Shown piece by piece: positions 7,719 through 57,787 of a stretch of DNA of 64,000 nt. This DNA is from a virus. Lineage: Duplodnaviria; Caudoviricetes. The notes beneath the pieces were generated by a model that did not search any database, was not told the origin of the DNA, and saw nothing but the letters and a program-made list of their open reading frames with translations. Within the stretch, counting starts at the first letter, position 1. The number at the start of each line of letters is the position of its first letter. The stretch lies in the IMG/VR virus record IMGVR_UViG_3300042554_001750, one strand, 5' to 3'. The position numbers were made by a program, and so were the translations under genes.

Positions 7719-8087
7719 TTAATATACCTTATCACTCATTGTATGATCATTGACGGGTTCATCACTCACCATGAGTACTTCATTGTTATCAACTTTACGG
7801 ATAACTTTTTCACCCTCGTCATCTTCTATTTTAATCCCTCTTGTCCAACGACCGTGACTGATTAGGATATATTGCCCAACCTGTATGTCCTTTTGTTCGG
7901 GTCCAATAGCATATACCTTTGCCCATCTTGGACGAATGCCCGAACTTTTCATATCATCATTTAACAATACGATGCCACCATTACTAATACGTTCATCAAA
8001 TGTCATATCAGATACAATGATAGTATCATTTAATGGATACAACTTTTTGATTTTGTGCGCTGCGTAGGCTAACTTTTTATCTTCCAT
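7719..8087 (-). CDS. groES: GroES/Cpn10-like co-chaperonin
   Basis: PLNDTIIV...GGIVL...VYAIGP...IQVGQYIL pattern of Cpn10. Confidence 0.8.
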   Translation of the reverse strand: MEDKKLAYAAHKIKKLYPLNDTIIVSDMTFDERISNGGIVLLNDDMKSSGIRPRWAKVYAIGPEQKDIQVGQYILISHGRWTRGIKIEDDEGEKVIRKVDNNEVLMVSDEPVNDHTMSDKVY

Positions 8088-8486: not shown

Positions 8487-8993
8487 TTACTTCAAAAACT
8501 CGTCAATTGACAAATCATAGAATATTGAATTGATTTTGTGTACTCCCAAGAGATACAAAACATAACTTGCTACGCTACTACCTCGTCCTACTCCCCAAAC
8601 AATATTATGTTGTCGCATCGTGTCTACTAAAAATTTAAGATACCTTAGTAGGTCAAACATATCCCGTTCTTGATACAACAAAAGTTCTTGACCCACCCGT
8701 TGCAATTCAACTTCCGTAGTACACAAATCTAAAACATATTTGGCTATATCCAGTTGTTTATACTGTTCGGGCATGAGCCACTGTCTTTGTAGTCCCAAAT
8801 CAAAATCCTCAACAGACAAGTTAGTTGGGATGTATTGTTCAATTTGGGGAATGTCTGACAAATCTAAAGATTCGTCAAATAAAATTTCCTTGTCAGTCAA
8901 AACTTTAGACAAAGAGATTTCAGGATTCTTTAGATAGAATTCACATAAGTCTGTTTCAGAATAAATCTTCTGACCATAAATATCTTGGCGCAT
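8487..8993 (-). CDS. dnaE: DNA polymerase III alpha (DnaE)-like fragment, N-terminal piece
   Basis: RVGQELLLY...WGVGRGSSVASYVLYLLGVHKINS...EFLK matches the DnaE segment GPGRGS...LGIT...ERFL. Confidence 0.8.
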   Translation of the reverse strand: MRQDIYGQKIYSETDLCEFYLKNPEISLSKVLTDKEILFDESLDLSDIPQIEQYIPTNLSVEDFDLGLQRQWLMPEQYKQLDIAKYVLDLCTTEVELQRVGQELLLYQERDMFDLLRYLKFLVDTMRQHNIVWGVGRGSSVASYVLYLLGVHKINSIFYDLSIDEFLK

Positions 8994-8999
8994 TTAGAT

Positions 9000-9029
9000 A
9001 TTATAAAGCATACCAACTACTGGTGTCAA
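9000..9029 (-). promoter_or_regulatory. sigma70-type promoter for the DnaE N-piece
   Basis: TTGACA-18 bp-TATAAT; ATG 6 nt downstream of -10; no SD. Confidence 0.7.
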
Positions 9030-19425: not shown

Positions 19426-21429
19426 TTACTTCTTAATGCCAGCAAGTCTTGCCCAGGCCATTGGATCTTCCATACGGGTATCTTGACCAGCAATAACTGG
19501 AATAGTTGTTTGACCCGTTGACTTAGGCTTGTTCAAGCCGCCCGCAATCACTTTAGTCATGAATTCAATATCTTGCTCAAAACTTGCATCAGTACCTTTT
19601 CCGGGTCCTGATCCTGTTTGATTAGCCCACTCTTTTAAGCTGTCAGCTTTTGCCAATGCCTCATCTTCCTGAGCTTCTGCATTTTCATCGGCTGCAGTTT
19701 CTGCTTCATCACTATCAGGGGCATTATCTTCAGCGACTTCGTATGTCATTTGATCTTCAGATTCTACTTCATCAACCATTTCTTTGTCACATTCGCACTT
19801 GCTTTCCATGTACCCACATTCGTTACATGTTTCTTCATCGGAATGCTCATGGTCGTGTTCTTCAGATCCTTCTTCATCAGCATAATCACCGTTACTAGGC
19901 TCACCACCGGTTACTTTCTTAATTAGAGCCATCATACCATCATGGTCTCCCACAACATCTACACCACCGTGTTGAGGTGTATCACCCTGTGGAGCACCAT
20001 AACCGTTTGATTCTTCACCACCAAATAAACCTAAACCAGCTTGCTTAATAAGACCTAGCAATTGTTCCGCTTCACCGTCTTGTGCTGAAACACTTACTGA
20101 GTCTGGCATGCCTTGTTGACCTTTACTGATACTTACAGTCATGCCTTCGTCTACTTGCTCACCTTCAGTTAACAAAGCATTTAACTGCTTGTCTAGTGAT
20201 TCAAAAGCCATAGAGTCCATTTCTAAAACATCTTTGTCTTTCATGGTTTGACCGAATGCTTTGAATGTATCGCCCGGTGTTGTTTTTGCTTTGTGTTTCA
20301 TCCACTCAGACTTATCCATTTCGTACATGTCATCTTCCATTGCTGGCATAGCTTGACTTGCCATTCCAGGAACTGTTGCTGGTGGAGTTTCTTTTACTAA
20401 ACCAACGATAGGTTGTTGACCATAGCACTCATCAAGACCTTCTTTGAAACCTTCGTGATACTGTCTTGCTTCTTCCATGTCTTCATATTTGCAATTATAT
20501 GCTTCTTTAGCTAGAGCATGGTGCTTACCTAATAATCTTGCTGCGGTGTGCTTATGCATACTTTCATTTACTTTCTTTTTGTCTTTTTTAGCATCGTCTG
20601 CTGCTTTCTTCATAGATTCTTTTTTATTACCATCTTTATCTAAATCTATAAAGTCAGGCTTTGCTGCCTCTAATGTTGTTTGACTACGACCAGCACCTAG
20701 ACCAGCTCCAATAGTATCTATACTTGAAGATGAAGGAATGTCACCTTCATTTGTTTTGGCGCGCAATTTAGCAAGAACGGCGCCAGCTACTTTTTCACCA
20801 CGCTCTTTGCTACCGTACTTTTCACCGGCTGCCTTAGCAATCTTAGCAAACTGCTTACCTGGCTTACCAATATCTTTACCAGCACGGGCTTTCTTTGCAC
20901 TGTAATCTTCATCACCTTCACCTAGCTTATGATCACCTGCTAAGGTCATTTCACCCTTACCAATAGATTGCTTAATTTGTGCAGCTAGTTGAGGATTAGT
21001 TACAGTTCCTAATGTCTTTGTACCTTGCTTAATAACCTGTGTATTTTGTTGGGCTGGTTGAATTGTAACTTGTTCTGCTTCAGCAACATACTTTTCTTCA
21101 ATCTCTTGAACCCACTCTTTCAAGCTATGCTTCTTGCTAGCCTTGCCTGGAAGTTTACCTTTTGGTAAATTACCAATCATATATGATTGTAGTTCTTTAG
21201 CACCGCCGTATGTTTTTACTTCTCCGGTGTCGCTATCGGCACCCTTCTTAGGACGACCACGACCACGCTTTACTTCGGGCTTCTTTTCTTTTTTCTCATC
21301 ACCCTCTTCATCGGTGTCAAATTTACGGCCATAACCACCTGGTTCTGCTTTGTGTACTTTACCAGTTGAAGTTTCTTTAGTTGCTTCACTTAACTGGCTA
21401 AGTTGATTTAACATTGATTTGAAATCCAT
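19426..21429 (-). CDS. large acidic/charged protein, candidate internal head or scaffold protein
   Basis: 667 aa, E/K-rich; KRGRGRPKK AT-hook-like motif; codon usage like the highly expressed structural genes. Confidence 0.6.
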   Translation of the reverse strand: MDFKSMLNQLSQLSEATKETSTGKVHKAEPGGYGRKFDTDEEGDEKKEKKPEVKRGRGRPKKGADSDTGEVKTYGGAKELQSYMIGNLPKGKLPGKASKKHSLKEWVQEIEEKYVAEAEQVTIQPAQQNTQVIKQGTKTLGTVTNPQLAAQIKQSIGKGEMTLAGDHKLGEGDEDYSAKKARAGKDIGKPGKQFAKIAKAAGEKYGSKERGEKVAGAVLAKLRAKTNEGDIPSSSSIDTIGAGLGAGRSQTTLEAAKPDFIDLDKDGNKKESMKKAADDAKKDKKKVNESMHKHTAARLLGKHHALAKEAYNCKYEDMEEARQYHEGFKEGLDECYGQQPIVGLVKETPPATVPGMASQAMPAMEDDMYEMDKSEWMKHKAKTTPGDTFKAFGQTMKDKDVLEMDSMAFESLDKQLNALLTEGEQVDEGMTVSISKGQQGMPDSVSVSAQDGEAEQLLGLIKQAGLGLFGGEESNGYGAPQGDTPQHGGVDVVGDHDGMMALIKKVTGGEPSNGDYADEEGSEEHDHEHSDEETCNECGYMESKCECDKEMVDEVESEDQMTYEVAEDNAPDSDEAETAADENAEAQEDEALAKADSLKEWANQTGSGPGKGTDASFEQDIEFMTKVIAGGLNKPKSTGQTTIPVIAGQDTRMEDPMAWARLAGIKK

Positions 21430-49231: not shown

Positions 49232-49612
49232 ATGGCTTTAAACGATTTTTTTAAGAAGTTGAGCGAAAATCATCCCTTTATAACGGTTTGCTCATACGCT
49301 AATCAAGACTATGTAGGAATAGTGCAAAACAGGGATGATACAGTCACCACAATATATGATTACGGAGCCATTGTTGATCAGGAAATCAAGAGTAAATTCT
49401 TAGAACTAGGTGATATTTGGTGGTGGGAAAGCAATAGACTTATACCTATAAATCTATTTTTGAAAGATGAATGGAGTATTTTTAAGCCCTATCTAAGAAC
49501 TTTTAATAATAAAAGTTTAGTAATTTTACACGGGCCCACATGTAGTATGAATGAACTTCACAAACGCCGTAGTAAGAGGCGTAGTATCACGCTAGTCAAG
49601 CGTATTTCCTAA
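49232..49612 (+). CDS. hypothetical protein
   Basis: 126-aa ORF whose 3' end overlaps the convergent DnaE C-piece. Confidence 0.8.
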   Translation: MALNDFFKKLSENHPFITVCSYANQDYVGIVQNRDDTVTTIYDYGAIVDQEIKSKFLELGDIWWWESNRLIPINLFLKDEWSIFKPYLRTFNNKSLVILHGPTCSMNELHKRRSKRRSITLVKRIS

Positions 49613-50176
49613 TTCTACTAATAAATTCATATGTACTGCTACTAGCCACGCATACCCAACCGCGTGTGCTTTCTTAAACTGATATCCGTCAGTGCCACGA
49701 TCCCATATTGTTTTTGCTACTTCAATCCAGGGTAGTCCAATCAGATGCTTTTTTCCCGGGCGAATCAATGCTAGAAACATAGCAAGTCTAGGAATACTAT
49801 TGACTGGTTCGGGCATCTTAGTTAGTGACGGATAATGATTTCCAATATGAATTAGTTTTTCTACAAAGAACGGATCATTCAATTTCTTCCAGTCAGGATC
49901 CCGCATAAGTTCTATCAAATGCTTTTCATCACGGACATGCTTATAAACATGTACATTCAATAAATCCAACTTAAAATAACCCCTCTTTTCTGCGTCTGAA
50001 TAGTCAATAGCTGCCATATCATTTACAGGATCGTAGGGTATTTCTGTAATATGAACTCCAGTAGCATGCTTGCGAATAGGATTTACCTTTAGCATAGCTG
50101 AAGGGATATGTTTTATATGTTGCAGTAATGTACTTCTATCTGCTAAGTCAATGTCTACATCAGTATCAATTTTCAT
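49592..50176 (-). CDS. dnaE: DNA polymerase III alpha (DnaE)-like fragment, catalytic palm/finger piece
   Basis: TDVDIDL (PDxDxD), RKHATGV, GYFKLDLL, LALIRPG and YQFKKAHAVGY, in DnaE order. Confidence 0.85.
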   Translation of the reverse strand: MKIDTDVDIDLADRSTLLQHIKHIPSAMLKVNPIRKHATGVHITEIPYDPVNDMAAIDYSDAEKRGYFKLDLLNVHVYKHVRDEKHLIELMRDPDWKKLNDPFFVEKLIHIGNHYPSLTKMPEPVNSIPRLAMFLALIRPGKKHLIGLPWIEVAKTIWDRGTDGYQFKKAHAVGYAWLVAVHMNLLVELGNTLD

Positions 50177-50763
50177 AATTGTATTGTTTTTATGCCACGC
50201 AATAACATTTCAACGCTAACTGCTACCAATATAAGACCCATTAATCTTTCCATAGCAATTAAAAATCTATTACCCAATAGATGTTGTATTCTATCACCTA
50301 TTAATAAAGCAATCATACTTATGGTAATACCTACTCCCATCGCTGCCACCCATACCCAAAACTCATCGGGTTGCTGACTAACTAATAACATCACAGTAGC
50401 TAACGCACTAGGTCCTGCAATCAATGGTATTGCCAATGGCACTATAAATGGTTCATGGTCCAATATTTCTTCTTCAACATTAGAATCATTAGGAAATACC
50501 ATTTTTATAGCAATAAGAAATAAAATAACTGCGCCTGCTAATTGGAGACTAGCATTACTTAATCCCAATGCACTTAAAAAGTGCTGACCCACAATCATAA
50601 AAAGAAATAGAATACCGAAAGCAATAAAATGCTCACGCACGATAATCCAACTTCTTTTTTCTACGCTATACTTTTTTAGTGTACTACTAAAGATGGGAAA
50701 ATTTCCAAACGGATCAAATATAAGTATCAGTAGCATCAATGCTGAAACAAATGTGTAGGTCAT
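50173..50763 (-). CDS. marC: MarC-family integral membrane protein
   Basis: DPFGNFPIF, IVPLAIPLIAGPSA and ERLMGLIL signatures. Confidence 0.9.
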   Translation of the reverse strand: MTYTFVSALMLLILIFDPFGNFPIFSSTLKKYSVEKRSWIIVREHFIAFGILFLFMIVGQHFLSALGLSNASLQLAGAVILFLIAIKMVFPNDSNVEEEILDHEPFIVPLAIPLIAGPSALATVMLLVSQQPDEFWVWVAAMGVGITISMIALLIGDRIQHLLGNRFLIAMERLMGLILVAVSVEMLLRGIKTIQL

Positions 50764-51317
50764 GACATAAAACCTGCCTTCATTAATTTCATGTAAGCCT
50801 GTTGTACAACAATTGCCTGTCGTTCAGCATCTTCTACTGCTTTGTGACTAGTCTTGTGTCCACCATCTTTTAATTTTACTCCGGCAATCTCATACAATGT
50901 TCTAGTATCACGAACAGTATAGAAAGGCCAGGGTATAGGATTAGGATAATCAGTTAATGTTTGACGCATGCCTGTTTCGCATGCGACCACATCAAATGCC
51001 GCTCCGTTACTCCAAACTGCTCTACGATTCCAACAAAACTTATAAAGTTGTTCCATACATTCTTTAAATGAAATACGATCCCTATCTCCCAATGCTTCTT
51101 CCATTGCTTCAGGACTTTGTGTACTCCACCAACGCAATGTATCTTCGTTGATAACTCTGTTGTGTATTTCTGTCTGATCCTCAATTGTAGGACGCAACTC
51201 TAACCGTTCTATAACACCTTGACCCTTAGGATCAAATCTCACAGCCCCGATGGTAAGTATAACACAATAAGGGCTTGTGTCAAGCGTCTCCAGATCAACC
51301 ATTATATCATTTGCCAT
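50760..51317 (-). CDS. DEDDh 3'-5' exonuclease (Rv2179c-like)
   Basis: MVDLETL, WSNGAAFD and HKAVEDA motifs. Confidence 0.85.
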   Translation of the reverse strand: MANDIMVDLETLDTSPYCVILTIGAVRFDPKGQGVIERLELRPTIEDQTEIHNRVINEDTLRWWSTQSPEAMEEALGDRDRISFKECMEQLYKFCWNRRAVWSNGAAFDVVACETGMRQTLTDYPNPIPWPFYTVRDTRTLYEIAGVKLKDGGHKTSHKAVEDAERQAIVVQQAYMKLMKAGFMS

Positions 51318-51598
51318 TACTGAAACTTTAATAGAAATAGTAAATATTTTTTCTCGTCCATAATCTTGTAACCATCAGTAATGTTACCATTGACCATGTT
51401 CATCTTTACACCATAATTATTTTCTAGATAATCTTCAAATTCGTAGGCATCAAATTGATTACTTGATGTATCCAAGATACTCATATATTCTTGCCGAACT
51501 TGTTTTAATGCTGCCCAGTAATCCCAGCGTTTTTTCCGTTGATCGTTCAACGGGTCATCTTCATCATAGTCTTGAAAACTTTTAGGGATGCTAGCCAT
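51317..51598 (-). CDS. small hypothetical protein (paralogous family)
   Basis: Ends DEKKYLLFLLKFQ. Confidence 0.75.
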   Translation of the reverse strand: MASIPKSFQDYDEDDPLNDQRKKRWDYWAALKQVRQEYMSILDTSSNQFDAYEFEDYLENNYGVKMNMVNGNITDGYKIMDEKKYLLFLLKFQ

Positions 51599-52292
51599 TA
51601 CTTTGCCAAATATTATCTAGACTTCTTACATCTTCAATGATACTACTGTCAAGATAATTAAGCAAGAGAGCTGGGCGATTTTGTTTAGTAGGATTGGGCA
51701 TACTAGAATGCAATACCCTAGAGTTATATAGCAACACACTACCTTTTGGTAAAGAGGGCTGAATAGAATTCGCTTTAAAGAATCCGTCGTACATTCCCTG
51801 ATAACAAAAATCTATATTGTAATTTACCATTTGACTTTTAGGAACTATACCTGTAGCTCCATTAGTTTTATCTAAGTCATATAAGGAAACTATAGCTTGT
51901 ATGCCTAAAAAGTTTTTGTTAAAGTTATATTTTTTAAATCTATGCGGAGTATCAACATGGGGATTGATCCAAGTAGATCCTGCGTTTATAGTTACAATGT
52001 CGCTAGCATACCATTCTGCTTTAGGCAGATGCATATTAACTGTGGGGTTTATTAATTGTTCTATTTGTATAACTTCGGGCCAATCCATAACAAATTGGCT
52101 CCACCAAACACTTACATTAGGTAATTTTTCAATCTCATTACGCTCGGCATACTTTTTGTTACTAGAACTAGCACGAACTGGATACAGTAATTCTTTTTTA
52201 GCCAAGATACTATCAATCAATTCATCTGGTATTATTTTTTCAAGGATAAGGTAGCCGTTGCCTGTGGTAAGCTGGTGTTTAACTACATTCAT
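51591..52292 (-). CDS. Fe(II)/2-oxoglutarate dioxygenase, PhyH-like
   Basis: HVD...GATGIVP.S...KGSVLLYNSRVLHSSMPN...R facial-triad pattern. Confidence 0.85.
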   Translation of the reverse strand: MNVVKHQLTTGNGYLILEKIIPDELIDSILAKKELLYPVRASSSNKKYAERNEIEKLPNVSVWWSQFVMDWPEVIQIEQLINPTVNMHLPKAEWYASDIVTINAGSTWINPHVDTPHRFKKYNFNKNFLGIQAIVSLYDLDKTNGATGIVPKSQMVNYNIDFCYQGMYDGFFKANSIQPSLPKGSVLLYNSRVLHSSMPNPTKQNRPALLLNYLDSSIIEDVRSLDNIWQSNG

Positions 52293-55301: not shown

Positions 55302-56759
55302 TCACTTATAATTAAGTTTTTCAATATCAAATGGATAACTTGCCTCTTTGTAAAAGGCTTTTCGTTGGCTCAAATGCCGTTTGGCAAACTTGCAACTACT
55401 TGTTATGTCCCAGATTTGTACGAAGTCCTTGTCCTCAGCTTTTCTAATGCCTCGCCCAATAGATTGTATAACCCTAACAAAGCTTTTTCCGGGCTCCAAA
55501 AGAACCAGATTAAAAATCCGAGGAATATTAATACCCACAGCGGCCACACCGTAAGTCGCCACAATAATCTTATCACTACTCGTCGCCACCTCATCATATT
55601 CTTCTTTTCTTTCAGTTAATTTTGTTTCGCCACTGACAAATACTGCATTAGGTAATCGGTCTACTAATTCTTTGCCGGCTGCTACACGGTCAACAAGGAT
55701 TAAAGTATTACCACTGTCTTTTATTTTTAAGATTAGCTCGGCGATTGTGTCTAATCTTTTCTTATCTTCTAATAGATGTTTTAGCTCACTTTGATAGTTT
55801 GTAAACTCTACGCCATCTTGTAACTGCACAATGTTTACATGACATTGTGCCAACACACCTTTGTCTTGTAATTCGCTGGCACTTAGTTTTCCTACAACGG
55901 ACCCGATACTAACAAACAATGCTTGTGCTTCAAACTTTGCTTTGGGAATAGTTCCAGTAAGACCCCAACGAATAGGTACATGACTGAATACGCTAGTCAT
56001 TAGTGTTTTAAGTGCGTCTGCCTTTGCTTGATGCACCTCGTCTACAATGATACAAACAACATCTTCAATAAACTCACCGATAGGAATTTCTGCTTCACCT
56101 GCTTTAGTTTTCTTCAACATATTGTTGAGACTTTGCCAAGTACAAATTGTGTGTGTCTTGCCTATTTCTTTTCTATCACCGAAGTAGACACCTACATCTA
56201 ATCCTACATTGCGATAATCTTCTTCTGTTTGTGTAACAAGTGACTTGTTAGGAACGATTACGATACTGCGACCATAGTTTTGTATGCTATAACTCAATGC
56301 TGCCGTTGTAATTGTTTTACCTGCACCTGTTGCTACTTCCTGAATACACTGCGGATTCTCTAAGAAACGGTTGATAACTTCTACTTGATAGTCACGCAAC
56401 TTAATAGGCTGACCCTCTAATGGATGCTTCTTGGGCCATACATGTTGAGAAAATAGATCCTCGGACACTTGAGCAAAATTGAATGTTGTGGAGTATTCGC
56501 GCAAGTCCTCTAACTGAATGTCATATCCTGCCTGATCAAGTAAGGGCAAAATCTCAGGCAATAGATTAAGATAAGTGCTACCACCTAAACTAAAATAACT
56601 TACCTTACCATTCCAACGACCTAACCTAACCGCGGGCAAATACCTTGCACCAGGAATTTCGTACTCAAACATATGAAGTAACGTTTTTCTGTCTCCTAAA
56701 TCCAAGTTTTCTATTTTACAATTAACTTCATCCTTAACAATAATTTTACAAGTTTTCAT
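55302..56759 (-). CDS. uvsW: UvsW-like SF2 helicase
   Basis: LRDYQ, ATGAGKT, VDEVH, GLTGT, GINIP and QSIGRG.R motifs. Confidence 0.92.
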   Translation of the reverse strand: MKTCKIIVKDEVNCKIENLDLGDRKTLLHMFEYEIPGARYLPAVRLGRWNGKVSYFSLGGSTYLNLLPEILPLLDQAGYDIQLEDLREYSTTFNFAQVSEDLFSQHVWPKKHPLEGQPIKLRDYQVEVINRFLENPQCIQEVATGAGKTITTAALSYSIQNYGRSIVIVPNKSLVTQTEEDYRNVGLDVGVYFGDRKEIGKTHTICTWQSLNNMLKKTKAGEAEIPIGEFIEDVVCIIVDEVHQAKADALKTLMTSVFSHVPIRWGLTGTIPKAKFEAQALFVSIGSVVGKLSASELQDKGVLAQCHVNIVQLQDGVEFTNYQSELKHLLEDKKRLDTIAELILKIKDSGNTLILVDRVAAGKELVDRLPNAVFVSGETKLTERKEEYDEVATSSDKIIVATYGVAAVGINIPRIFNLVLLEPGKSFVRVIQSIGRGIRKAEDKDFVQIWDITSSCKFAKRHLSQRKAFYKEASYPFDIEKLNYK

Positions 56760-57787
56760 GATATCTTTATGGGAGTGTTGTTGAGTACTTTGATTCTTTT
56801 AGTAATGTTAAGATCGGATACAGTATGCTTGTAATTCATTTTGCTAGAAAAATAAATGATAGCTATTTTTTTAGTTTGATAACTATCAACATCTTCTAAG
56901 AATAATTTCATTAAATTAAAAACTTGAATTCCAGATTCAGAAAACTTTTGTCTTAGTTCGGTCTTCAATGATTGGGGCAAAGAGTGTTCTGCAATTATAC
57001 CAACTGCATCGCATTCTATTTCACGAAGCCAATGAGGTAGATCAAAAATATCTTCAATTAAAATTTCAGTATCGTATTCACTAGCAAATTTGGTTTTTTT
57101 GTTTTGAAATTTTATCTCGTCTGAGATATCTACACCTAGAGTAGAAAGATATGCTAGTGTTTTTATATCAGTATTTAGTGTTATATTAGACAACTGATTA
57201 TGAATATGATTGTTGATAGCCGCAATCATATACTGATTATTTACCTTTACCAGAGTTGGGTTCCAATACTTGACAGAATCATGTCTTTTTAGTTTTTCTA
57301 AAAGTGTTTTAGTCGTATCGCAGTAATTAATCACTGGATAATATTTTTTAGCTGTGTCTAAAATCAACTTCAAAGAATACGACCCATACGGAGCCGAATA
57401 TCTTTTGTTATCCTTATCCCATTTAAAAAAATGAGTTTGTGTTCTTAAATCACTTATAAATTTTTTACTGAAGGGGGACCGAAAGTATATGAAATTGTTT
57501 TCAATAGAAACCTTTGCCTCTGTATATTCTTTTTCGCTGGGGACAATATTGGTTGCTTGCCAATTTAATTTAGATATCAAGGTAGGTGAAATTTTATTTT
57601 TTGTTAGTTGTCGTTGATACTTAATCACTAATTTTTCAAATAACGCTATTTGGTTTGTAGTCACAGACTGATTTTGTAAAATGGCAAAGTGCAAATTAGT
57701 AACAAACTTTAAGTCCAACGAACTTAGTTTCATCATTCCAACCTGCATGTAGTATACCAAATGTTCCCGAGTTTTTAATTCAATCAT
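56756..57787 (-). CDS. hypothetical protein
   Basis: 343-aa ORF coupled to uvsW; extended -10 TGCTAAAAT 6 nt upstream of the ATG. Confidence 0.8.
   Translation of the reverse strand: MIELKTREHLVYYMQVGMMKLSSLDLKFVTNLHFAILQNQSVTTNQIALFEKLVIKYQRQLTKNKISPTLISKLNWQATNIVPSEKEYTEAKVSIENNFIYFRSPFSKKFISDLRTQTHFFKWDKDNKRYSAPYGSYSLKLILDTAKKYYPVINYCDTTKTLLEKLKRHDSVKYWNPTLVKVNNQYMIAAINNHIHNQLSNITLNTDIKTLAYLSTLGVDISDEIKFQNKKTKFASEYDTEILIEDIFDLPHWLREIECDAVGIIAEHSLPQSLKTELRQKFSESGIQVFNLMKLFLEDVDSYQTKKIAIIYFSSKMNYKHTVSDLNITKRIKVLNNTPIKIS

What the first reader, a model, noticed from the sequence alone, without database searches (positions are those of the whole stretch)
49592..51317. Miniaturised, intein-less two-chain C-family polymerase with an adjacent DEDDh exonuclease
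Seen: the 194-aa protein keeps TDVDID (D6/D8, matching E. coli D401/D403), KHATG, KLD (K69/D71, matching K553/D555), LIRPG and YQFKKAHA in DnaE order. The spacing shows the thumb and most of the fingers are deleted, and no HhH, OB or clamp-binding region follows. Together with 8487-8993 it totals 362 aa, versus about 1160 for DnaE. A 3'-5' exonuclease is in the same operon. Established: T4-like replisomes normally use a family B polymerase. Inference: either a minimal multi-subunit replicase or a repurposed nucleotidyltransferase (primer extension, tailing, anti-defence).
Basis: partly seen in the sequence, partly recalled or inferred. Interest (0 to 1): 0.85.

Follow-up and report, generated by a model that had tools for sequence, protein, structure and literature searches.

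The report
Split mini Pol III polymerase, jumbo phage
Two small genes 41 kb apart in this uncultured giant lake phage encode the two halves of a stripped-down bacterial-type (Pol III alpha) DNA polymerase core; the reading is correct, but this split enzyme was described from sequence in 2021, so this is one more example and its job is still untested.

Summary
The 194-aa protein (49592-50176, minus strand) maps along its whole length onto E. coli DnaE 398-783, with the thumb and part of the fingers missing. It keeps D6/D8/D10 (D401/D403/D405), K69/D71 (K553/D555), the RPG motif and YxFKKxH. The 168-aa protein (8487-8993) maps onto DnaE 238-393 and carries the GRGS nucleotide-binding loop.

Both genes are under purifying selection, and the key residues are invariant in the 90 diverse C-half and 30 N-half homologues aligned. 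The two chains are predicted to bind (score 0.90, best control 0.00). Three metagenomic clusters encode them fused as one 375-aa chain.

This is the "minimal split DNA polymerase III alpha" of group 2.2 jumbo phages (Iyer et al. 2021, PMC7824862). All nine complete relatives tested carry a family B polymerase. The four close ones show no PHP, finger or HhH piece, so it is an accessory enzyme and not the replicase.

The exonuclease is separated from the C-half gene by a MarC membrane-protein gene. It is missing from several relatives that keep both halves, so it is not an obligate subunit.

New here: the natural fusions, and a 126-aa convergent neighbour linked to the C-half gene in every relative examined.

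The scan has flagged this enzyme before: 81 notes in at least 53 genomes.

The parts
49592..50176 (-). C-half of the split minimal Pol III alpha (194 aa). It carries the catalytic carboxylates D6/D8/D10 and D71, plus K69, RPG 139-141 and the YxFKKxH finger motif.
   Evidence: PHROG 11778 'DNA polymerase' 2e-55. AF2 pLDDT 95.3. Structural match to PolC, Taq and E. coli Pol III alpha only, Z 6.2-9.9. hhalign to DnaE 509-642. D6, D8, D10, K69, D71, R139 and P140 are invariant in 90 diverse sequences. Median dN/dS 0.13.
8487..8993 (-). N-half of the split minimal Pol III alpha (168 aa). It holds the start of the palm and the GVGRGS nucleotide-binding loop (134-139).
   Evidence: Pfam DNA_pol3_alpha 9e-9. 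PHROG 11127 1e-40. hhalign 8-168 to E. coli DnaE 238-393, prob 94%. GVGRGS is invariant in the 30-sequence alignment that includes the fused forms; in the 59 close relatives W133 is invariant too. dN/dS is 0.05 for residues 90-168 and 0.55 for residues 1-89.
9000..9029 (-). Consensus sigma-70 promoter directly upstream of the N-half gene. The TATAAT box ends 6 nt before the ATG.
   Evidence: 12 of 12 match, TTGACA-18-TATAAT; sequence read. This is a consensus match only, not shown to be functional.
49232..49612 (+). 126-aa protein of unknown function (phrog_11637). Its gene converges on the C-half gene and overlaps its 3' end by 21 nt. It is a neighbour in every relative examined and a candidate partner.
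   Evidence: Adjacent to the C-half gene in 79 of 80 close loci, in 5 of 5 distant phages and next to the fused gene. Found in 88 phage records with the same taxon spread as the polymerase. No fold or family match.
50760..51317 (-). DEDDh 3'-5' exonuclease of the Rv2179c-like family (185 aa). It is a lineage-specific upstream neighbour, not an obligate partner.
   Evidence: Pfam PF16473 2e-30; motif residues read. Within 6 kb upstream in 65 of 80 close loci. Absent from complete relatives G002 and G005 and from 3 of 5 distant phages.
50173..50763 (-). MarC-family integral membrane protein gene (196 aa) inserted between the exonuclease and C-half genes. It is context, not part of the enzyme.
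   Evidence: Pfam MarC 1.3e-47. Present in only 2 of 80 related loci. The same arrangement is seen on every contig shown of the 14 that encode the identical C-half (four places shown). ATGA overlaps on both sides.

Best explanation
What it is: the two genes encode the two halves of the phage-specific 'minimal split DNA polymerase III alpha' that marks group 2.2 (T4-related, Rak2/PA5oct/Atu_ph07-like) jumbo phages.

How it is built (shown or strongly predicted):
- The N-half corresponds to DnaE 238-393 and supplies the start of the pol-beta-type palm with the GRGS triphosphate-binding loop.
- The C-half corresponds to DnaE 398-783 without the thumb and without about 90 finger residues. It supplies the metal-binding aspartates (DxDxD plus D71), K69 and the palm-proximal finger motifs.
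- The break runs through the nucleotidyltransferase core, between the G[GS] loop and the DxD strand. Neither protein can be active alone. They must dock non-covalently, without an intein, to form one composite active site.

What it does (inferred, not shown): the enzyme is catalytically active and works beside the phage's family B replicase. My most likely single guess (about 45%) is short-patch templated DNA synthesis at the replication fork, such as extending primase-made primers before hand-off to PolB, or repair. The reason is that both genes sit in conserved replication blocks: the N-half with the clamp loader, the C-half with primase and DnaB helicase.

The neighbouring DEDDh exonuclease is a lineage-specific operon mate, not a subunit. 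The MarC gene is a recent insertion.

The confidence given applies to the identity and two-chain assembly, not to the guessed role.
For: Family membership: PHROG families and 40-47% identity to both halves in about 93-96 cultured jumbo phages, always at distant loci. The published description matches point by point (PMC7824862).

Homology to DnaE.

Functional constraint: dN/dS is 0.13 for the C-half and 0.05 for the conserved part of the N-half, and the catalytic residues are invariant. The C-half family has 364 clusters at 50% identity.

Assembly:
- The complex model scores 0.90 against a best control of 0.00. That mark was reached by 58 of 80 solved complexes and 2 of 110 mismatched pairs. 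The three runs agree in at least 93% of contacts, and the partner's pLDDT is 90. The GVGRGS loop touches residues 9-11 next to D8/D10. Both chains resemble one solved single-chain enzyme, so this pass may reflect that likeness.
- Independent support comes from three natural single-chain fusions in N-to-C order (P0047, P0151, P0152, 375-376 aa, from different samples).

Accessory role: a family B polymerase is present in 4 of 4 complete close relatives and 5 of 5 distant phages. In the four complete close relatives there is no PHP, finger or HhH domain, and no PolA hit above the Pfam cut-off.

Replication context.
Against: No biochemical or genetic data exist for any member (literature searches).

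The thumb, the beta-binding domain and about 90 finger residues are missing, so duplex binding and processive templated synthesis are not assured. The substrate could be something other than primed DNA.

The window's own genome is not held, so its PolB and the absence of further DnaE pieces are inferred from relatives.

Plain HMMER searches of the C-half against PDB sequences find nothing. Its assignment rests on profile-profile comparison and a predicted structure.
Confidence: 0.85

Rival explanations
1. It is a repurposed nucleotidyltransferase and not a templated DNA polymerase. On this reading the pared-down pol-beta-type core adds nucleotides without a template (tailing of DNA or RNA ends) or makes a nucleotide product used in phage-host conflict.
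For: The thumb, the clamp-binding region, the OB domain and about 90 finger residues are gone. The pol-beta-like superfamily includes many non-templated transferases (established knowledge). The phage already has a full family B replicase.
Against: What is retained is specifically DnaE/PolC-like, including the finger motifs RPG and YxFKKxH. The only structural matches are family C polymerases. Both genes sit in conserved replication blocks, not in defence or counter-defence islands.
Confidence: 0.2
2. It is the catalytic core of a minimal multi-subunit replicase in which the neighbouring DEDDh exonuclease acts as the proofreading subunit, like epsilon on alpha.
For: The exonuclease and C-half genes are in one tightly coupled gene string here. 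They are directly or nearly adjacent in most close relatives, with 65 of 80 loci holding the exonuclease within 6 kb. Other first readers noted the same pairing in other genomes.
Against: The exonuclease family is absent from 2 of 4 complete close relatives that keep both halves. It is absent from 3 of 5 distant cultured phages and is not within 5 kb of the C-half gene in any of the 5. The PHP domain that binds epsilon in DnaE is missing. All complete relatives have their own family B polymerase, a family whose T4-type members carry a built-in proofreading exonuclease (the exonuclease point is established knowledge, not tested here).
Confidence: 0.07
3. The two ORFs are decaying remnants of a captured bacterial dnaE (pseudogene fragments), or a non-catalytic scaffold.
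For: Only a third of DnaE is left, and it is in two pieces 41 kb apart.
Against: There is strong purifying selection, and the catalytic and nucleotide-binding residues are invariant across all aligned homologues. Lengths and gene boundaries are conserved across hundreds of clusters. Intact fused versions exist. The N-half has its own consensus promoter.
Confidence: 0.01

Closest known systems
Split minimal DNA polymerase III alpha of group 2.2 jumbo phages (Iyer, Anantharaman, Krishnan, Burroughs, Aravind 2021, Viruses 13:63, PMC7824862)
   Same: Two stand-alone proteins from distant genes: an N-terminal NTP-binding half and a C-terminal Mg2+- and template-binding half. No other Pol III domains are present, and a family B polymerase and a T4-type replisome accompany it. 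The window's proteins are 40-47% identical to those of RaK2, PA5oct-like phages, Atu_ph07 and Phosso.
   Different: There is no difference in kind. This copy comes from an uncultured freshwater lineage. In that lineage a Rv2179c-like exonuclease usually sits just upstream of the C-half gene, and in this phage a MarC gene sits between them.
Bacterial replicative family C polymerases DnaE and PolC (E. coli 2HNH, Taq 3E0D, G. kaustophilus PolC 3F2B)
   Same: They share the pol-beta-type palm with the GRGS loop, the DxD plus D catalytic carboxylates, the Lys next to the third Asp, and the palm-proximal finger motifs. The order along the chain is the same.
   Different: The phage enzyme totals 362 aa in two chains against about 1160 aa in one. 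It has no PHP domain (only the last ~30 residues align), no thumb, about 90 fewer finger residues, and no beta-clamp-binding, HhH or OB domains.
Cyanobacterial split-intein DnaE (Synechocystis/Nostoc DnaE-N and DnaE-C)
   Same: A family C polymerase is encoded as two distant genes.
   Different: In cyanobacteria the halves carry split-intein parts and are spliced into one full-length DnaE, and the split site is elsewhere (established knowledge). Here both proteins align end to end with DnaE and leave no room for an intein, and the split lies between the GRGS loop and the DxD strand.
Natural single-chain mini Pol III alpha (P0047, P0151, P0152; metagenomic, 375-376 aa)
   Same: They hold the same two modules in the same order, joined by a short linker, and a p126-like gene converges downstream.
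   Different: They are fused in one polypeptide. They are rare: 3 clusters among the relatives found with the fused protein as query, against 364 C-half clusters at 50% identity.

Membership tests
Split minimal Pol III alpha of group 2.2 jumbo phages | The catalytic module is encoded as two stand-alone proteins from distantly located genes | tested here: met
   The genes lie at 8487-8993 and 49592-50176, 40.6 kb apart, on the same strand. Cultured relatives show the same separation.
Split minimal Pol III alpha of group 2.2 jumbo phages | The N-terminal protein is the NTP-binding subdomain with the GRGS loop | tested here: met
   Pfam DNA_pol3_alpha 9e-9. hhalign to DnaE 238-393, prob 94%. GVGRGS is invariant.
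Split minimal Pol III alpha of group 2.2 jumbo phages | The C-terminal protein is the Mg2+- and template-binding subdomain with the catalytic aspartates | tested here: met
   D6, D8, D10 and D71 are invariant in 90 sequences. hhalign and structural alignment place it on DnaE 398-783.
Split minimal Pol III alpha of group 2.2 jumbo phages | No other Pol III alpha domains (PHP, full fingers, HhH, OB) anywhere in the genome | tested here: inconclusive
   No PHP, DNA_pol3_finger or HHH_6 hit, and only one DNA_pol3_alpha hit, in each of 4 complete close relatives. The window's own genome is not held, so this could not be tested directly.
Split minimal Pol III alpha of group 2.2 jumbo phages | Accompanied by a family B DNA polymerase and T4-type replication genes | tested here: inconclusive
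   PolB is present in 4 of 4 complete close relatives and 5 of 5 distant relatives. The window holds a clamp loader, DnaB helicase, primase and a UvsW-type helicase. PolB is not within the 64-kb window, and the rest of the genome is not available. An unchecked first-reader note says this phage has its own PolB.
Split minimal Pol III alpha of group 2.2 jumbo phages | Sequence membership in the phage families of both halves | tested here: met
   phrog_11778 2.4e-55 and phrog_11127 1.1e-40. tblastn finds 96 and 93 jumbo-phage records.
Full-length bacterial DnaE/PolC (replicative family C polymerase) | N-terminal PHP domain | tested here: not met
   The N-half starts at the equivalent of DnaE residue 238. 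There is no PHP hit in relatives.
Full-length bacterial DnaE/PolC (replicative family C polymerase) | Thumb domain between the DxD motif and the third aspartate | tested here: not met
   27 residues separate D10 and H37, against 106 between D405 and H511 in E. coli.
Full-length bacterial DnaE/PolC (replicative family C polymerase) | Beta-clamp-binding, HhH and OB domains C-terminal to the fingers | tested here: not met
   The protein ends at the equivalent of DnaE residue 783. There is no HHH_6 hit in relatives.
Full-length bacterial DnaE/PolC (replicative family C polymerase) | Pol-beta-type palm with the G[GS] loop and three catalytic carboxylates | tested here: met
Split-intein DnaE | Intein N- and C-fragments at the split ends | tested here: not met
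   Both proteins align end to end with DnaE (8-168 to 238-393; 1-194 to 398-783), leaving no room for about 100 + 35 intein residues. The natural fusions join the halves with a short plain linker.
Pol III core (alpha + epsilon proofreader) | A DEDDh exonuclease that always accompanies the polymerase and docks on its PHP domain | tested here: not met
   The Rv2179c-like exonuclease is absent from G002 and G005 and from 3 of 5 distant phages, and the PHP domain is lacking. A different, RNase_T-type exonuclease occurs in 4 of 5 distant phages; it was not examined further.

The most novel reading that the evidence does not exclude
The mini polymerase may be a three-part machine. On this reading the 126-aa protein p126 is its missing DNA- or clamp-binding subunit and stands in for the lost thumb, OB or clamp-binding parts. 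The grounds are that its gene converges on the C-half gene in every relative examined, that it is better conserved than either polymerase half, and that it has a small beta-barrel and a basic tail. Together the three proteins would form a primer-extension or hand-off polymerase beside PolB, the role DnaE plays beside PolC in Bacillus.
Probability: 0.15. Interest if true: 0.6.

Novelty: new member of a known kind. Interest (0 to 1): 0.25.

Why it matters
The enzyme class is interesting in itself. It is the smallest known family C polymerase core, it is cut through its active site, and it coexists with a family B replicase. Iyer et al. proposed it as a model for the ancestral Pol III module. No member has ever been assayed.

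This copy adds no new principle, but the session produced three usable leads for whoever does the biochemistry. First, natural single-chain fusions could be expressed as one protein. Second, a 126-aa neighbour linked to the gene in every relative examined should be tested as a partner. Third, the neighbouring exonuclease is dispensable across the family and need not be included as a subunit.

Tried and rejected
- Plain sequence searches of the C-half against PDB chains, as a single sequence and as a 25-sequence profile, found no polymerase. The link to DnaE needed hhalign and a predicted structure.
- Foldseek alone gave only weak E-values (best 6e-3), although its top 15 hits were all family C polymerases. 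VIA-align gave the clear separation.
- I tried to fold a fused homologue with a joint alignment. MAFFT laid the N-halves onto the C-half region, so that alignment was discarded and not folded.
- The window's own genome could not be obtained. The nearest held record, G001, is a 40-kb fragment with no PolB. PolB and the absence of further DnaE pieces are therefore inferred from relatives.
- p126 was considered as a missing DnaE piece. hhalign against E. coli DnaE gave prob 0.4%. Fold searches gave only weak small-barrel hits (best Z 3.3) and uncharacterised homologues. The Atlas search gave nothing.
- The 343-aa protein at 56756-57787 sits where RaK2 has its exonuclease gene, but it has no Pfam hit.
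- A donor for the MarC gene was sought in genome contigs, and no close relative was found.
- The PA5oct omics paper does not mention these genes, so no expression timing could be taken from it.
Full report
**What is there.** The finding's coordinates (49592-51317, minus strand) cover three genes, not two.
- A 194-aa ORF at 49592-50176.
- A 196-aa MarC-family membrane protein at 50173-50763 (Pfam 1.3e-47).
- A 185-aa Rv2179c-like DEDDh exonuclease at 50760-51317 (Pfam 2e-30; D8, E10, D109, H158, D163).

ATGA stop/start overlaps join the three genes. The 168-aa partner lies at 8487-8993, 40.6 kb away on the same strand. The rest of the window is typical of a T4-related jumbo myophage: clamp loader, tail sheath, DnaB helicase, DnaG-type primase and a UvsW-type helicase.

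**Check of the motif reading.** All quoted motifs are present, and their equivalence to E. coli DnaE holds under test.
- A 90-sequence profile of the C-half aligns residues 35-142 to DnaE 509-642. This pairs KHATG with KHAGG (510-514), KLD with KFD (K553/D555) and LIRPG with LFRPG (637-641).
- An AlphaFold2 model of the C-half is confident (pLDDT 95.3, pTM 0.88).
- VIA-align lays all 194 residues onto family C polymerases and onto nothing else. The matches are G. kaustophilus PolC 968-1302 (Z 9.9, rmsd 3.2, 190 aligned), Taq Pol III alpha 459-843 (Z 9.6) and E. coli 399-783 (Z 8.6). The first unrelated chain scores Z 3.0.
- The DxDxD at D6/D8/D10 therefore corresponds to D401/D403/D405, and YQFKKAHA to YGFNKSHS (754-761).
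- The N-half profile aligns residues 8-168 to DnaE 238-393 (prob 94%), and GVGRGS matches GPGRGS 359-364.

Together the two proteins cover DnaE 238-783 in 362 residues. The thumb is missing: 27 residues lie between D10 and H37, against 106 in E. coli. About 90 finger residues are missing: 26 lie between R139 and Y165, against 115. Nothing follows residue 783. Neither protein has room for an intein.

**Is it functional?**
- C-half: across 75 sequences from IMG/VR contigs, median pairwise dN/dS is 0.13. In 90 sequences reaching down to 30% identity, D6, D8, D10, K69, D71, R139 and P140 are invariant.
- N-half: the DnaE-like part (residues 90-168) has dN/dS 0.05 and an invariant GVGRGS loop. Residues 1-89 are looser at 0.55.
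- The C-half family has 364 clusters at 50% identity in a 1.8-billion-protein library, nearly all of them 180-220 aa.

**Do the halves form one enzyme?** There are two lines of evidence.
- The complex model scores 0.90 against a best control of 0.00. That mark was reached by 58 of 80 solved complexes and 2 of 110 mismatched pairs. The runs agree in at least 93% of contacts, and the partner's pLDDT is 90. The GVGRGS loop (133-139) touches residues 9-11 beside the catalytic aspartates. Both chains resemble parts of a solved single-chain enzyme, so this pass may come from that likeness.
- Independently, three metagenomic clusters (P0047, P0151, P0152; 375-376 aa; 78-81% identical to each other; different samples) encode N-half plus C-half as one chain in DnaE order with a short linker.

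The split runs between the G[GS] loop and the DxD strand of the pol-beta-type core, so neither half can be catalytic alone.

**Is it the replicase? Are there more DnaE pieces?** The window's genome is not held, so I used complete relatives.
- Four IMG/VR genomes (335-525 kb, 95-100% complete) each carry a roughly 915-aa family B polymerase and exactly one DNA_pol3_alpha hit, which is the N-half. None has a PHP, DNA_pol3_finger or HHH_6 hit, and none has a PolA hit above the cut-off.
- Five distant cultured phages (Phosso, Paride, Atu_ph07, RaK2, Vibrio 2.275.O) all carry a family B polymerase.

The mini enzyme is therefore an accessory to PolB, and no ordinary DnaE can be rebuilt from further genes.

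**The exonuclease.**
- In 65 of 80 close relatives the Rv2179c-like exonuclease lies within 6 kb upstream of the C-half gene, and most often directly beside it.
- It is absent from two complete close relatives that keep both halves (G002, G005).
- It is absent from 3 of 5 distant phages, and it is not within 5 kb of the C-half gene in any of the five.
- The PHP domain that docks epsilon on DnaE is missing.

It is a lineage-specific operon mate, not a defining subunit. The MarC gene between the two occurs in only 2 of 80 related loci. It is present on every contig shown of the 14 that encode the identical C-half (four places shown), so I read it as a recent insertion.

**Conserved context.**
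- Across the whole family the C-half gene sits in the block C-half / p126 (convergent) / virion protein / primase / DnaB.
- The N-half gene sits in the block p202 / N-half / p125 / Cpn10-like / clamp loader.
- The N-half has a perfect sigma-70 consensus promoter whose -10 box ends 6 nt before the ATG.

**Prior knowledge.** Iyer et al. [quoted passage not shown] They place it in group 2.2 jumbo phages alongside a family B polymerase, and suggest it helps synthesise one strand or acts in repair. Attai et al. 2018 had annotated the Atu_ph07 N-half as Pol III alpha. I found no experimental work. This scan has flagged the same enzyme 81 times in at least 53 genomes, with the same verdict from earlier follow-ups.

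**Verdict.** The enzyme is a two-chain minimal family C core. It is not the main replicase, and the exonuclease is not an obligate partner. It is a new member of a known kind. Its function remains inferred. My best guess is short-patch templated synthesis at the fork beside PolB, and a non-templated transferase role remains open.

p126 has no recognisable fold and is not a DnaE piece.

Noticed in passing
window 49232-49612 (+): A 126-aa protein (phrog_11637, no Pfam) whose gene converges on the C-half gene and overlaps its 3' end by 21 nt. It is adjacent to the C-half gene in 79 of 80 close loci, in all 5 distant phages and beside the fused gene, and it occurs in 88 phage records with the same taxon spread. 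It is 84-90% identical among the closest 120 of 3,272 metagenomic clusters, which is better conserved than either polymerase half. The model shows a small beta-barrel, helices and a basic tail (KRRSKRRSITLVKR). No known fold was found.
   Followed up: partly
L154:1066-2193 (P0047); also P0151, P0152: Natural single-chain versions (375-376 aa) of the mini Pol III alpha, with the N-half and C-half fused by a short linker. They come from three clusters in different metagenomes.
   Followed up: partly
window 50173-50763 (-): A MarC-family integral membrane protein gene sits inside a phage replication operon, joined by ATGA overlaps to the exonuclease and C-half genes. It is present in only 2 of 80 related loci, its base composition matches the phage, and no close cellular relative was found.
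   Followed up: partly
window 9000-9029 (-) and ATG at 8993: The perfect TTGACA-18-TATAAT promoter has its -10 box ending 6 nt before the N-half start codon, which suggests a leaderless mRNA.
   Followed up: no
window 51591-52292 (-): A PhyH-type (phytanoyl-CoA dioxygenase family) gene lies in the same gene string. In some relatives it sits directly upstream of the C-half gene in place of the exonuclease.
   Followed up: no
window 7719-8087 (-): A Cpn10/GroES-like co-chaperonin gene (Pfam 3e-5) lies two genes downstream of the N-half gene. It is conserved there in 57 of 58 related loci.
   Followed up: no
G004 (IMGVR_UViG_3300027749_002876, 524 kb): 19736-20581 and 508767-510176: This 524-kb relative carries two family B polymerase genes, in open frames of 1117 and 917 aa.
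   Followed up: no
window 51256-51283 (-): A strong promoter-like site (11 of 12, with an extended -10 TG) lies inside the 5' end of the exonuclease gene, downstream of its ATG. It could drive a transcript for MarC and the C-half, or it may be a chance match.
   Followed up: no
RaK2 NC_019526.1 109954-110460; Vibrio phage MG592671.1 6595-7098: A different DEDD exonuclease (Pfam RNase_T, epsilon-like, 262-288 aa) occurs in 4 of 5 distant group 2.2 phages. In RaK2 and the Vibrio phage it lies next to uvsW, about 5 kb upstream of the C-half gene. No counterpart was recognised at that position in the window.
   Followed up: partly
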